From positions 108,872,001 through 108,936,000 of the forward strand of contig OX597817.1 in assembly GCA_951406725.2 (NCBI GenBank): 64,000 nucleotides of DNA, given 5' to 3'. This document shows, piece by piece, positions 36,420-41,729 of this stretch. The translations under genes were made by a program, and so were the position numbers. Under the pieces are notes generated by a model that had not been told where the DNA came from, did no database searches, and worked only from the letters and a program-made list of their open reading frames with translations. Position 1 is the first letter of the stretch. Each line of letters opens with the position of its first letter. This stretch comes from Octopus vulgaris. Taxonomy: Eukaryota.

Positions 36420-36548
36420 AAATAATAATAATAATAATAATAATAATAATAATAATAATAATAATAATAATAAGAAGAAGAAGAATGATAATAATAATAA
36501 TAATAATAATAATAATAATAATAATAATAATAATAATAATAATAATGA
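36420..36548 (+). repeat. (AAT)n tract 1 with internal (AAG)n
   Basis: Direct reading. Confidence 0.95.
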
Positions 36549-36767
36549 TAAAAGAATATTAAGACAAATACATAACAAAAACAACAGGACTTACAAACAC
36601 ATATAACATACAGAAAATTGCACTACTAGGCACTGCACACATCCTACGCAGAACACTTTCCATACAATAGCCATCAGAGCATCACAACACATCACAGCAC
36701 ATACCCAAGGCACACAGAGCTGCGCTCGGTAGTGAAGTGAAAGCACGCTATAAAAATAAAACTACTG
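36549..36767 (+). mobile_element. 5'-truncated Dong/R4-type element, fragment 1 (ORF end + 3' UTR)
   Basis: Encodes KYITKTTGLTNTYNIQKIALLGTAHILRRTLSIQ*, homologous to the long ORF's end (VQKIVLMGTAHILRKILSM*). Its 3' UTR is different and ends in (AAT)n. Confidence 0.88.
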
Positions 36768-36872
36768 AATAATAATAATAATAATAATAATAATAATAAT
36801 AATAATAATAATAATAATAATAATAATAATAATAATATAATAATAATAATAATAATAATAATAATAATAATA
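36768..36872 (+). repeat. (AAT)n tract 2
   Basis: Direct reading. Confidence 0.95.
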
Positions 36873-37137
36873 GCCCAGAAAGAATATAAGAGACATCATG
36901 ACAATATAGCAAGGATTGTCCATTGGACACTCTGGGAACAGTAAGCAGAAATCTTGAGAAGTACATGGAATAAATAGAGGCTGCAATAAGGGTGGATCAC
37001 TTGCAGAAAATAGCACTGCTTCGAACCGCTTGAATACTCCGGATAGTGCTTGAAAAGTCAGGGGTGTTACTTTAGTTCACTGGTAGTGAACAGCTGGCAC
37101 CGTAGTACATCTCCAGCGTTAGAAGCTATACAAAGAC
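36873..37137 (+). mobile_element. 5'-truncated, internally deleted Dong/R4-type element, fragment 2
   Basis: Encodes AQKEYKRHHDNIARIVHWTL (cf. APTEYPNRHDRAAQYIHWVI) joined to LGTVSRNLEKYME*IEAAIRVDHLQKIALLRTA*ILR. A third distinct 3' UTR. Confidence 0.85.
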
Positions 37138-37843: not shown

Positions 37844-37935
37844 AATAATAATAATAATAATAATAATAATAATAATAATAATAATAATAATAATAATAAT
37901 AGTAATAATAATAATAATAATAATAATAATAATAA
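37844..37935 (+). repeat. (AAT)n tract 4
   Basis: Direct reading. Confidence 0.95.
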
Positions 37936-40900
37936 TGCTCATCACCAAATAATCAAAAGAAAAAGAAGGAAAAATGGTCTAGGGAAGATAATAAAGAAGT
38001 TCTTGAGGCCTTCTACCATGCCATATATTTCCCCACAGATAAGTCTAGCACTGTACAAGCATACTTAAACTGGAGACAGAAACACCCTGAAGTAAGACCC
38101 TACATAGACAGTAACAAGCTTGCCAATGTTAGAAGAAACATTATAAAAAAGAAATTACTGACTGAAGTAGAGATTGATCAGGTTAGACAAGCAATATCGG
38201 ATAAAATGAACGAAGCTGCAGCTAGAGAAGATAATACAGAGGAAATGATTATAGACCAGCCCAGGGCGGATAAAAACGAAGAGAGGATTGAAAGAGTTAG
38301 TATAAGTGAAAGGCAAAGTGAAATTCGCCCTGAACCAATCATAAACACTAAGACAGATGAGCATCAAATAGATAAAGAAAGTCACACAAATACTGACCCA
38401 ACAGAACTACATGAGCTAAAAAATCGAATCATGATTGAATGGCTGAAAATTAAAGAAACCAGCATGGATGAGCGTGATACACTTCCTAAAATCCGCAACT
38501 CTAACCAAAACATGAAAATAATTGGTAAAATCCGGCTTGCACTTAAGGATATAATTTCAGTTAATGATGTTGATATCACAAACCTCAACCACTTATACTA
38601 TGCATCCGCGAAAATCTCAACGATCCTATGTGATGTAAAGATTAGAAAACGGCAACAGTCCCACAAAAAGCCTTCTTGGCAAGAGCGTCTGCAACAACAA
38701 ATTAAAATATTTAGATCTGACATTGAATATTTGAAAAACCTTAAGGCTCACAAGACTACCAAACCTACAAAAACCCAAAAATTACTGAAAAAATACAATA
38801 TGAAAACTATACTTGATATTGATGCCACCATAGAAACCATCAAACAAAAGGTATCTGCCAAAGCTGCCCGCATAGCGAGGTATGAAAAGCGTGTTAGATT
38901 TTTCAAGGACAACAACATGTTCAAAAATAACACCAAAAATTTTTACAGGAAGATAGGAAAAACAGCGTTTACTGCAGGGTCTGTACCATCAAAAGAAGTG
39001 CAGAGATTTTGGAATAAAATCTGGGCAGAAGAAAAAACACACAACGAAAAGGCCCCCTGGATTGACAGAATATCTACAGAACTGGACCCCTTAGAAGAGC
39101 AAAAGTGGGAGGGTGTCAAGGTAGAAGATATAAGATCTGCTCTCAGGAGGTCAAGCAAATGGAAGTCTCCAGGAAAGGATAAAATTCCTAACTTCTGGCT
39201 GAATGCCTTCCCAGAGAGCCATGAACTGCTAACAGAACTGTACAATGATGTTTTGCAACACCCTAGTAGGATGCCTCCTTGGCTAGTTAATGGGTTAACA
39301 TTCCTGCTTCCAAAAAGTGAAGAAACAAATGAACCAAAAAACTACAGACCCATAACCTGCTTAACAACTATGTACAAAACACTAACATCTGTCCTGACGG
39401 AATATACCTATAGTTTTTTAACAGACAGCAGCATATTCCCTAATGAACAGAAAGGATGTAAACGTGGATCCTACGGCTGTAAAGACCAACTACTCATCAA
39501 TAAGATGATCTTAGAAGATTGTCACAAACGACACAAAAACTTATCAATAGCCTGGATAGACTATAAAAAGGCTTTTGATAGCCTACCACATAGCTGGATT
39601 AGGAAATGCCTTGAAATGTATAAGATAGCACCAACTCTGCGAAACTTCTTGACTGTAAGTATGAGATCATGGAGAACCACACTAACTCTGAACAGTGACA
39701 GTGAATCCCTAAATGCTGGTGATGTAAAAAATTTGTGTGGCATTTTCCAGGGTGACTCACTGTCACCACTCCTCTTTTGTTTATCCTTAATACCTCTCTC
39801 AAAGCTGCTCAATGACGCGCAGTACGGGTATAAAATGTTTGATAAAAATATAAATCATCTCGTTTACATGGATGATTTAAAGCTTTTTGCAAAAAATGAT
39901 CAACAACTCAAGGGCTTACTAGCGATAGTCAAACAATTCAGTGACGACATCAGAATGCAATTCGGCCTCGATAAATGTGCAAAGGCTACCTTTATCAAAG
40001 GAAAAATGACAGAAACATCTAACGTTAACATTGACCAACAGAATGTCATAAAAGAACTAGACCCAGCGGAGAACTACAAGTACCTAGGGGTAATTGAAGG
40101 GAACGGAATAAGGCATTCAGAGATGAAGGAAAGGATCAGGAGAGAATGCTATCGAAGAGTGAGAGCAATACTCAAGACAGAGCTGAATGCAAGAAACAGG
40201 ATCGAAGCAATCAATGCATTAGCTATACCAGTCGTGACTTACAGTTTCAATATTGTTAACTGGTCAATTACTGAAATATGTCAGCTCGACAGAAAAATAA
40301 GGAAACTGTTGACAATGCATAGAATGCACCACCCTAAGGCAGATACAGAACGACTCTATCTGCCAAGAAAAGAGAGAGGCCGTGGTCTTTTGCAACTGGC
40401 AATAACAATGAAGATTGCTACAATTGGCCTAGACACCTACCTGAAAAACTCTGAGGACTGGATGTTAAAACTTGTCTCAAAACATGAAAACAAGAAAGCA
40501 TCATACTCAGTCACAAAACAGGCAAAGGAATATCTAAGTGAATTCCGAATACAACCAATTTCGGAATTAGAGATAGATATACAAGAAACAAGCACAGAAA
40601 AAGCTAGGCGCATGCAAACCCGTGCCAAAACTGTGGCCTTAGATATTCTGAATAATAAATGGCAAGAAAAACCTCTCTATGGCAAATACCCAAAGAGAGC
40701 GAATAATGCAGATATCGACAAAGCCCTGACCCATCAATGGCTAATGGCCTCTGGCTTAAAATCTGAAACAGAGGGGTTTATCATAGCAGCTCAAGATCAA
40801 TGCCTACCAACAAGAAACTACCAGGCCAACATATTAAAGATCAGAAGCAGTCCAACGTGTCGTGTATGCAAGCAACAAAATGAAACCATTGACCATGTGG

Positions 40901-41644
40901 TCTCCAAGTGCAGTCTTCTAGCGCCTACAGAGTATCCCAACAGGCACGATAGAGCTGCACAATATATTCACTGGGTAATCTGTAAAAACCTGGATTTGCC
41001 CCATGAAAAAAACTGGTGGGAACACAAACCACCCCCAGTGCTTGAAAATGACCACATCTCACTCCTCTGGAACTTCACCATTCAAACTGACAGGAAGATA
41101 GATGCAAATAGGCCAGACATCATATTGAAAGACTTCAAACAAAGAACATGCCTCCTCATTGATATGACTGTCCCAATCGATATAAACGTATCTGTCAAGA
41201 CCTACCAAAAACTGACCAAATATAAAGATCTTGAAATAGAAATCAGCAAAATGTGGAAGCTGAAGACTAAAACAATACCTGCTGTCATAGGTGCCCTGGG
41301 AATGATAGCAAAAGGGGCTGATAGCTACCTAACTCAGATACCAGGAAACCCAAAAATGGCAGAAGTTCAAAAGATAGTGCTCATGGGAACTGCTCATATC
41401 CTACGCAAAATACTCTCTATGTAAACTCAAGGTTTAAAACAAACATAATTTTCGGTTTAAAAAAACAAACAAAAAGAAACACCTTTTTTTTTTTAGACAT
41501 TCATTAGTACAACATCCCCACCCCCCAAATATATGGCACACTAGGCATAACAACAACATGAACTTCCAACCCTGTTGTCTCTTGAGGTCTCTGGGTGAGA
41601 CTTGGAGCCAACTTGTACAAATATAAAGCAAAAGTCAAACATAG
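37936..41644 (+). mobile_element. R4-clade (Dong-like) RLE non-LTR retrotransposon, near full length, in an (AAT)n target
   Basis: Single long RT-RLE ORF, 220-bp 3' UTR, (AAT)n on both flanks. TAA-microsatellite targeting is established for Dong elements. Confidence 0.93.
38206..41424 (+). CDS. Reverse transcriptase + CCHC zinc knuckle + restriction-like endonuclease polyprotein (1072 aa from the first ATG; frame open from 37936)
   Basis: KSPGKD, NYRPITCL, WIDYKKAFDS, GIFQGDSLSPLLF, YMDD (39865-39876), YKYLG, CRVC-x8-H-x4-C (40858-40911), RHD, RPDII...LIDMTVP (PD at 41113-41118) and KLTKYKDL. No stops or frameshifts. Confidence 0.95.
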   Translation: MNEAAAREDNTEEMIIDQPRADKNEERIERVSISERQSEIRPEPIINTKTDEHQIDKESHTNTDPTELHELKNRIMIEWLKIKETSMDERDTLPKIRNSNQNMKIIGKIRLALKDIISVNDVDITNLNHLYYASAKISTILCDVKIRKRQQSHKKPSWQERLQQQIKIFRSDIEYLKNLKAHKTTKPTKTQKLLKKYNMKTILDIDATIETIKQKVSAKAARIARYEKRVRFFKDNNMFKNNTKNFYRKIGKTAFTAGSVPSKEVQRFWNKIWAEEKTHNEKAPWIDRISTELDPLEEQKWEGVKVEDIRSALRRSSKWKSPGKDKIPNFWLNAFPESHELLTELYNDVLQHPSRMPPWLVNGLTFLLPKSEETNEPKNYRPITCLTTMYKTLTSVLTEYTYSFLTDSSIFPNEQKGCKRGSYGCKDQLLINKMILEDCHKRHKNLSIAWIDYKKAFDSLPHSWIRKCLEMYKIAPTLRNFLTVSMRSWRTTLTLNSDSESLNAGDVKNLCGIFQGDSLSPLLFCLSLIPLSKLLNDAQYGYKMFDKNINHLVYMDDLKLFAKNDQQLKGLLAIVKQFSDDIRMQFGLDKCAKATFIKGKMTETSNVNIDQQNVIKELDPAENYKYLGVIEGNGIRHSEMKERIRRECYRRVRAILKTELNARNRIEAINALAIPVVTYSFNIVNWSITEICQLDRKIRKLLTMHRMHHPKADTERLYLPRKERGRGLLQLAITMKIATIGLDTYLKNSEDWMLKLVSKHENKKASYSVTKQAKEYLSEFRIQPISELEIDIQETSTEKARRMQTRAKTVALDILNNKWQEKPLYGKYPKRANNADIDKALTHQWLMASGLKSETEGFIIAAQDQCLPTRNYQANILKIRSSPTCRVCKQQNETIDHVVSKCSLLAPTEYPNRHDRAAQYIHWVICKNLDLPHEKNWWEHKPPPVLENDHISLLWNFTIQTDRKIDANRPDIILKDFKQRTCLLIDMTVPIDINVSVKTYQKLTKYKDLEIEISKMWKLKTKTIPAVIGALGMIAKGADSYLTQIPGNPKMAEVQKIVLMGTAHILRKILSM

Positions 41645-41729
41645 AATAATAATAATAATAATAATAATAATAATAATAATAATAATAATAATAATAATAA
41701 TAATAATAATAATAATAATAATAATAATA
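41645..41729 (+). repeat. (AAT)n tract 5 (3' tail/target)
   Basis: Direct reading. Confidence 0.95.

What the first reader, a model, noticed from the sequence alone, without database searches (positions are those of the whole stretch)
36420..41729. Repeat-spacer-like stack of four co-oriented Dong-type insertions in one (AAT)n locus, ending in an intact RT-nuclease element
Seen: five (AAT)n tracts of about 85-200 bp alternate with inserts of about 220, 265, 510 and 3710 bp. Inserts 1 and 2 encode diverged versions of the long ORF's C-terminus (QKIALLGTAHILR, QKIALLRTA*ILR versus QKIVLMGTAHILR), and all four 3' UTRs are unrelated, so they are different lineages and not tandem duplications. Established: Dong (R4 clade) elements target TAA repeats in fixed orientation by target-primed reverse transcription. 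Inference: each insertion regenerates target on both sides, so the locus becomes a growing archive of 3' ends from several co-existing subfamilies. It could act as a transposon trap or small-RNA source if transcribed.
Basis: partly seen in the sequence, partly recalled or inferred. Interest (0 to 1): 0.72.

Follow-up and report, generated by a model that had tools for sequence, protein, structure and literature searches.

The report
Dong retrotransposons stacked in AAT repeats
A run of AAT repeats in what is likely an octopus genome holds four jumping-gene copies in a row (three cut-short Dong-type retrotransposons of separate lineages and one non-coding passenger), a common arrangement in this genome that likely arises simply because these elements aim at AAT repeats.

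Summary
The layout is real: five (AAT)n tracts separate four co-oriented inserts, each a member of its own multi-copy, AAT-tailed family. Three claims fail. (1) The long element is not intact: it lacks about 1,236 nt of 5' end, including the start codons, and its private changes look neutral. (2) Insert 3 is not a LINE 3' end but a near-complete copy of a 556-nt non-coding element (about 26,000 copies by extrapolation, some under 1% diverged) with no detectable similarity to Dong. (3) The stack is neither special nor ordered. A 1.4-Mb random sample held 7 stacks, one with four units. Junctions (10) exceed uniform (0.6) and fixed-target (4.0) nulls but fit a model in which each insertion adds target (6.8, P=0.10). 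Young copies have neighbours equally on both sides (28/55 vs 21/47), so it is not a CRISPR-like archive. Young copies do have about twice as many neighbours as an average tract, which is unexplained. Dong targeting of TAA repeats and active Dong-R4 families in octopus are in print. The scan found such stacks and this passenger before on other DNA. Trap or piRNA function is untested.

The parts
36421..36546 (+). (AAT)n tract 1, with a short (AAG)n interruption
36547..36767 (+). Insert 1: 3' end (last ~40 codons plus ~103-nt 3' UTR) of Dong-type lineage F1, 5'-truncated, young (2.3% from the family majority)
36768..36872 (+). (AAT)n tract 2
36873..37140 (+). Insert 2: 3' part of divergent Dong-type lineage F2, 5'-truncated, with an internal deletion of about 314 nt at ~36932; older (8.2%)
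37141..37334 (+). (AAT)n tract 3, with (AAC)/(AGC) degeneration in the middle
37335..37842 (+). Insert 3: near-full-length old copy (10.2%) of a 556-nt non-coding AAT-tailed element, F3 (SINE-like, no tRNA head found); likely moved by Dong proteins
37843..37936 (+). (AAT)n tract 4
37937..41644 (+). Insert 4: Dong-type lineage F4 copy, 5'-truncated by about 1,236 nt, young (0.8%)
37936..41424 (+). Uninterrupted 1162-codon frame of insert 4: N-terminal helical motif (res. ~14-90), RT (460-719, YMDD at 644), CCHC knuckle (975-992), restriction-like endonuclease (RHD 1003, RPD 1059, D1076, K1088/K1092). First in-frame Met is residue 91, after the N-terminal motif
41425..41644 (+). 3' UTR of insert 4 (220 nt)
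41645..41729 (+). (AAT)n tract 5

Best explanation
This locus holds three 5'-truncated Dong-type retrotransposon copies of separate lineages and one non-coding passenger, all facing the same way between AAT tracts, and it likely grew by four independent target-primed insertions into one AAT microsatellite. Shown: family membership, AAT tails, 5' truncation, shared orientation, different ages, frequent stacks genome-wide, no polarity. Inferred from R2/R4 biology: the restriction-like endonuclease nicks the ATT strand, the freed end primes reverse transcription from the element's 3' end (fixing orientation and the 3' junction), early termination gives the variable 5' ends, and AAT remains on both sides, so every insertion adds a target. 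The result is a neutral by-product, not an ordered archive. Inferred: insert 4 is dead on arrival. Inferred: the 556-nt element borrows a Dong protein.
For: RT and RLE: Pfam RVT_1 E=4.9e-27; best PDB sequence matches are R2 proteins, aligned through RT, knuckle and nuclease; model pLDDT 87.7, top 7 fold matches all R2. AAT-type tract (12 nt or more) directly after the 3' end in 29 of 29 other F4 copies, 26 of 26 F1 copies and 26 of 28 F3 copies scored. In 1.4 Mb of random sequence, 137 tracts had 31 co-oriented against 2 antisense Dong/F3 ends upstream (134 scorable) and 27 against 2 downstream (133 scorable). Strict chains: 51 single, 5 double, 1 triple, 1 quadruple. Junction nulls: uniform 0.64 (maximum 5 in 5000 runs), fixed targets 4.0 (P>=10 is 0.002), self-renewing targets 6.8 (P=0.096). 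No polarity: 28 of 55 downstream against 21 of 47 upstream, p=0.56. Private changes in insert 4: 6 synonymous, 17 non-synonymous over 1161 codons, close to the neutral ratio. Literature: Dong targets (TAA)n in insects, molluscs and cnidarians (PMC7998251, passages; PMC3812793, passages); 5 Dong-R4 families with 1129 recently active insertions in Octopus vulgaris (PMC13282606, parts 1-2 of 3).
Against: Young F1/F4 copies have a co-oriented neighbour at 49 of 102 junctions against 58 of 267 for all random tracts (p=1.5e-6) and 45 of 163 for longer tracts (p=0.0009). The simple model under-predicts clustering by about twofold; against random units (20 of 58) the difference is not significant (p=0.10). 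F1 alone leans to the downstream side (15/26 vs 5/18, p=0.07). F3 shares no detectable sequence with ten Dong 3' ends or two 5' ends, so its motor is inferred from polarity and target only. No named Dong sequence was available for a tree. Some private differences in insert 4 could be assembly errors. Some stacks elsewhere grew by tandem duplication, which the nulls ignore.
Confidence: 0.88

Rival explanations
1. The locus is a functional transposon trap or piRNA source: stacks are kept because a transcript through them yields small RNAs against several families.
For: Several active lineages sit within 5.3 kb. Young copies have about twice the neighbour rate of average tracts.
Against: Stacks are common (7 of two or more units in 1.4 Mb) and their number fits a neutral target-renewal model. 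All inserts lie in one orientation, set by the target strand, so nothing beyond targeting is needed. The twofold excess can come from fresher, longer tracts being better targets: downstream neighbours at 4 of 52 short against 8 of 19 long tracts.
Confidence: 0.05
2. It is a CRISPR-like chronological archive in which new inserts are added at one end.
For: It looks like repeats alternating with unique spacers. F1 alone leans one way (15/26 vs 5/18, p=0.07).
Against: Ages run young, old, old, young. F4 gives 13/29 downstream against 16/29 upstream, and the pooled test gives p=0.56. Tract and insert lengths are irregular.
Confidence: 0.02
3. The stack is an assembly join of unrelated loci through AAT tracts.
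For: Tracts of 85-194 nt are hard for short reads, and some nearby differences may be polishing errors.
Against: Every insert has its family's exact 3' end followed by AAT and a clean 5' junction. The same pattern recurs on many contigs, with strict strand bias. The assembly has chromosome-scale contigs.
Confidence: 0.04
4. The 556-nt element F3 is moved by another enzyme (a Penelope-like or Tx1 element) or is the long 3' UTR of an unseen Dong lineage, not a passenger of F1/F4.
For: No sequence link to the Dong ends tested. Penelope-like hammerhead sequences also border AAT tracts here.
Against: F3 has Dong polarity: a fixed 3' end before AAT (9 of 11 random copies not cut by a region edge), a common 5' end (11 of 41 copies that reach the 3' end start at base 1), graded 5' truncation, 5'-end duplications like those of F4, and young copies coeval with F1/F4. 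No copy was seen joined to an ORF without a tract in the loci held.
Confidence: 0.2

Closest known systems
Dong elements, R4 clade (Bombyx mori Dong, DongAg, DongBg, ostracod Dong1/2; 'Dong-R4' of octopus annotations)
   Same: One ORF with RT, CCHC knuckle and restriction-like endonuclease; no N-terminal zinc fingers; (TAA)n target; several families active in octopus (PMC7998251, PMC3812793, PMC13282606).
   Different: Placement beside a named Dong was not tested. At least seven deep lineages share one target in this genome. Multi-family stacks were not described in the papers found (searches).
R2 retrotransposons (solved structures 9nl3, 9dou, 8gh6)
   Same: Same RT-knuckle-RLE fold; mechanism taken from them by inference.
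   Different: R2 targets 28S rDNA and has N-terminal zinc fingers; none found in 57 homologues here.
R2 SIDEs (short internally deleted non-autonomous elements; PMC3414825, abstract only)
   Same: Short non-coding passengers of an RLE retrotransposon, inserted at the partner's target with TPRT-type 5' junctions.
   Different: SIDEs consist of the parent's 5' ribozyme and 3' end; F3 shows neither against the Dong ends tested.
Utopia/U2 tandem arrays (PMC4640811, passages)
   Same: Several families of an RLE element share one target and form tandem arrays.
   Different: The target is the U2 snRNA gene, which insertion destroys; AAT tracts survive on both sides.

Membership tests
Dong / R4 clade | Single ORF with non-LTR reverse transcriptase | tested here: met
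   RVT_1 at 460-719, E=4.9e-27; YMDD at 644
Dong / R4 clade | C-terminal CCHC knuckle and restriction-like endonuclease | tested here: met
   C975, C978, H987, C992, R1003-H1004, P1060-D1061, D1076, K1088/K1092 conserved in 90% or more of 57 rows; aligned to R2
Dong / R4 clade | No N-terminal zinc fingers (unlike R2) | tested here: met
   No C2H2 pattern in the first 330 aa of 57 of 57 rows; none in the extra N-terminal part of copy L146 by inspection
Dong / R4 clade | Divergent N-terminal Myb/SANT-like domain (PMC7998251) | tested here: inconclusive
   Conserved W14, W46, L62, R66, I69 and a confident helical bundle, but no Pfam Myb match in the window protein or 13 of 13 homologues scanned
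Dong / R4 clade | Insertion into (TAA)n in fixed orientation | tested here: met
   29/29 F4 and 26/26 F1 copies with an AAT-type tail; 31 vs 2 and 27 vs 2 sense to antisense in random tracts
Dong / R4 clade | 5' HDV-like self-cleaving ribozyme (shown for B. mori Dong, PMC3774820 passages) | tested here: inconclusive
   Rfam found nothing on the F4 5' end; a home-made descriptor found none in F4 or F1 and had no positive control. The window copy lacks the 5' end anyway
Dong / R4 clade | RT phylogeny groups it with named Dong/R4 elements | not tested
   No named Dong or R4 among the 120 listed of 653 homologues; the tree holds only unnamed rows
Autonomous, intact element (insert 4) | Complete 5' end and start codon; changes under purifying selection | tested here: not met
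   About 1,236 nt missing, including about 109 codons from the first Met; 6 synonymous vs 17 non-synonymous differences
tRNA-derived SINE (insert 3) | tRNA-like head with A and B boxes | tested here: not met
   ARAGORN 0 genes in 10 of 10 loci; no credible Rfam match; only a weak box pair at 86-126, while three tRNA-SINE controls gave head pairs and one did not
SINE/SIDE with LINE-derived ends (insert 3) | 3' tail (and for SIDEs 5' end) homologous to the partner LINE | tested here: not met
   36 local alignments against ten 3' ends and two 5' ends; best p=0.015 and 0.04 uncorrected
CRISPR-like array | Polar addition and uniform repeat/spacer lengths | tested here: not met
piRNA cluster / transposon trap | Locus-derived transcript and phased small RNAs | not testable with these tools
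   No small-RNA or raw stranded reads were available

The most novel reading that the evidence does not exclude
The 556-nt element F3 is an undescribed, still-active non-coding passenger of Dong/R4 proteins, with tens of thousands of copies, neither a tRNA head nor a Dong-derived tail, and so recognised by RNA shape or by its AAT tail alone. Together with at least seven Dong lineages it builds self-amplifying AAT stacks that attract new insertions about twice as often as average tracts.
Probability: 0.4. Interest if true: 0.5.

Novelty: new member of a known kind. Interest (0 to 1): 0.24.

Why it matters
As a locus it is ordinary. As a system it gives a countable model of how microsatellite-targeting retrotransposons make their own target and share it among many lineages. 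The passenger F3 would be a handle on how R4-clade proteins choose template RNA: RLE elements such as R2 are held to need their own 3' UTR (PMC3414825, abstract), so a homology-free passenger would point to relaxed or tail-based recognition, which is of interest for retrotransposon-based gene insertion. The thousands of stacks are also potential population markers.

Tried and rejected
Expression: no RNA holder listed. Contigs of four runs guessed to be RNA covered the F4 family but carried the family's majority letters at this copy's private sites, and did not cover the unique flanks; this says nothing for or against transcription of the locus. Mis-assembly and empty-site test: contigs of four DNA runs stop at the AAT tracts and none spans the stack; inconclusive. 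Summed depths were not used. Ribozyme search: Rfam and a descriptor written from recall gave nothing; F3's descriptor hits were matched by 18 of 30 shuffles; no hammerhead core in F3, F1 or F4 heads. F3 fold: z=-2.7, 1 of 100 shuffles as good, a weak hint only. A shared GGTAG word near the 3' ends appeared in 3 of 11 ends; not pursued. Atlas search gave only unnamed eukaryotic clusters. Rows left out of the neighbour counts: the window's own loci; tandem duplicates L009, L038, L059, L060; six F1 loci whose 5' junction lay outside the locus; L050 and L052 upstream (internal deletions, not junctions). F3-centred loci (7/28 down, 7/27 up) were not pooled with the young copies. In one search, 16 of 68 units are ORF-only matches and some are probably other RT families; the chain rule is strict and misses stacks with an unrecognised unit. 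The random sample was 140 of 160 planned regions, drawn from contigs C1-C29 below lower-bound lengths, so distal parts of some contigs were not sampled. The original Dong paper (PMC309301) and PMC4400214 were not held. Kojima and Fujiwara 2004 was not seen. Repbase/Dfam and the Zenodo library of PMC13282606 could not be searched, and no supplements were opened, so F3 may already be catalogued there (893 unclassified SINE families are counted in that paper).
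Full report
Setting. The window lies on contig C4 of a 2.8-Gb genome in 227 contigs. From size, contig scale and repeat content I infer an octopus-like genome; this is inference and I did not match it to a record.

Observation. Inserts 1 and 2 encode the quoted C-terminal peptides and the 3' UTRs are unrelated. 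Each insert belongs to a multi-copy family: 261, 3275, 9138 and 1327 first-look candidates, 40 scored each. An AAT-type tract follows the 3' end in 26 of 26 F1, 29 of 29 F4 and 26 of 28 F3 copies scored; F2 copies mostly show shorter, decayed tails. A tree of 31 endonuclease-region rows (19 natural copies thinned from 57, plus 12 database proteins) puts F1, F2 and F4 in separate deep clades and shows at least seven lineages in this genome.

Insert 4 is not intact. The 1162-codon frame has RT, CCHC knuckle and restriction-like endonuclease, and its predicted fold (pLDDT 87.7) matches R2 proteins best. But it starts at the AAT junction. Of 29 other copies, 15 start within 12 nt and 20 within 100 nt of a common 5' end about 1,236 nt upstream. 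The missing part holds the 5' UTR and about 109 codons from the first in-frame Met; the first Met left is residue 91, after the conserved N-terminal motif. The copy differs from the family majority at 0.8% of sites, with 6 synonymous and 17 non-synonymous differences and a one-codon gap. That pattern is what neutral decay gives, though assembly errors cannot be excluded.

Insert 3 is a different kind of element. Copies share a fixed 3' end before AAT and a common 5' start, with graded 5' truncations: 11 of 41 copies that reach the 3' end start at base 1, and 9 of 11 random copies not cut by a region edge reach the 3' end. The full element is 556 nt, has no long frame, no tRNA or credible Rfam match, no convincing A/B box at its head and no significant similarity to ten Dong 3' ends or two 5' ends. 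Copies range from under 1% to 17% from a young copy, so it has been active for a long time and recently. Thirteen hits in 1.4 Mb extrapolate to about 26,000 copies (14,000-44,000), fragments included. That a Dong protein moves it is inferred from target, polarity, truncation and 5'-end duplications like those of F4.

Is the stack special? I drew 140 random 10-kb regions. They hold 137 AAT tracts; 31 of 134 have a co-oriented Dong/F3 end upstream (2 antisense), 27 of 133 one downstream (2 antisense), and 10 have both. Strict chains number 51 single, 5 double, 1 triple and 1 quadruple; the quadruple (L151) also mixes three families. This extrapolates to about 14,000 stacks of two or more (5,600-29,000) and about 2,000 of four or more (50-11,000). 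Expected junctions: 0.64 under uniform placement (never 10 in 5000 runs), 4.0 with a fixed set of targets (P=0.002), 6.8 when each insertion adds a target (P=0.096).

Result against the simple model. Young F1/F4 copies have a co-oriented neighbour at 49 of 102 junctions, against 58 of 267 for all random tracts (p=1.5e-6) and 45 of 163 for longer ones (p=0.0009). Longer tracts carry more downstream neighbours (4 of 52 against 8 of 19), so tract freshness or regional survival may explain it, but I did not show this. Tandem duplication also builds some stacks (L058-L060, L037/L038).

Is it ordered? No. Divergence from family majority runs 2.3, 8.2, 10.2 and 0.8% from 5' to 3'. Neighbours of young copies lie downstream in 28 of 55 and upstream in 21 of 47 cases (p=0.56); F4 gives 13/29 and 16/29, F1 15/26 and 5/18 (p=0.07). 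The repeat-spacer analogy is only visual.

Mechanism. Shown: composition, orientation, truncation, ages, frequency. Inferred from R2/R4 biology (own knowledge, and PMC3774820 passages): nicking of the ATT strand, target-primed reverse transcription from the 3' end, early termination, AAT left on both sides. A 5' ribozyme, known for B. mori Dong, was not demonstrated here. A role as trap or piRNA source is untested.

What is known. Dong targets (TAA)n in insects, molluscs and cnidarians and has a divergent Myb-like N-terminus without zinc fingers (PMC7998251, passages; PMC3812793, passages). Octopus vulgaris has 5 Dong-R4 families with 1129 recently active insertions (PMC13282606, parts 1 and 2 of 3). 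A full-ORF Dong consensus is noted for O. bimaculoides (PMC9115989, passages), and Dong-R4 is an old coleoid component (PMC8967140, passages). Non-autonomous passengers of R2 exist (PMC3414825, abstract), as do multi-family Utopia arrays (PMC4640811, passages). Searches showed no paper on multi-family Dong stacks or a Dong-moved SINE, but repeat databases and supplements were not seen. Earlier notes of this scan describe such stacks on other DNA, one with a 558-base non-coding passenger; these are unchecked notes, not support.

Verdict. A real, typical product of TAA targeting; a new member of a known kind; interest 0.24. The part worth more work is the passenger F3 and the twofold clustering excess.

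Noticed in passing
window 51473-51656 (minus strand); also L179, L200, L236, L243: Recurrent composite repeat: a tRNA-like head joined, often through an (AAT)n linker, to a Penelope-type end carrying a hammerhead core (CTGATGA...GAAA in the reference copy). It borders 9 of 137 random AAT tracts; the window copy lacks the AAT linker.
   Followed up: partly
window ~36270-36420: Decayed SINE-like sequence directly upstream of tract 1, resembling by eye the reverse strand of the abundant tRNA-type SINE that abuts 13 of 137 random tracts; it gave no BLAST hit.
   Followed up: no
L058-L060 (G000:C20 ~23.015-23.029 Mb); L037/L038 (C27); L008/L009 (C1): Head-to-tail tandem duplications of identical truncated units through AAT tracts (period about 770 nt for F1; an F4-F1-F3 block repeated 1,882 nt apart), a second route of stack growth.
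   Followed up: partly
L123 (G000:C12:56392844): An F4 copy truncated at exactly the same base as the window copy, at an AT microhomology with the tract, with a different upstream flank.
   Followed up: no
L093, L027, L028, L136: Repeated short duplications of the element's first 10-40 nt at 5' junctions of F3 and F4 copies, as from template jumping.
   Followed up: no
L138: F4 copy with a 5' inversion (antisense piece joined to the truncated 5' end).
   Followed up: no
window 15882-16406 (+): 174-aa frame that reads like the DNA-binding part of a Tc1/mariner transposase (by recall, no search).
   Followed up: no
window 49294-49770 (+): 158-aa frame that reads like the region after the RT of a Penelope-like element (by recall, no search).
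   Followed up: no
window 34000-44000 and whole window: No long host-gene-like frame was seen among 13 frames of 130 aa or more; short exons were not searched.
   Followed up: partly
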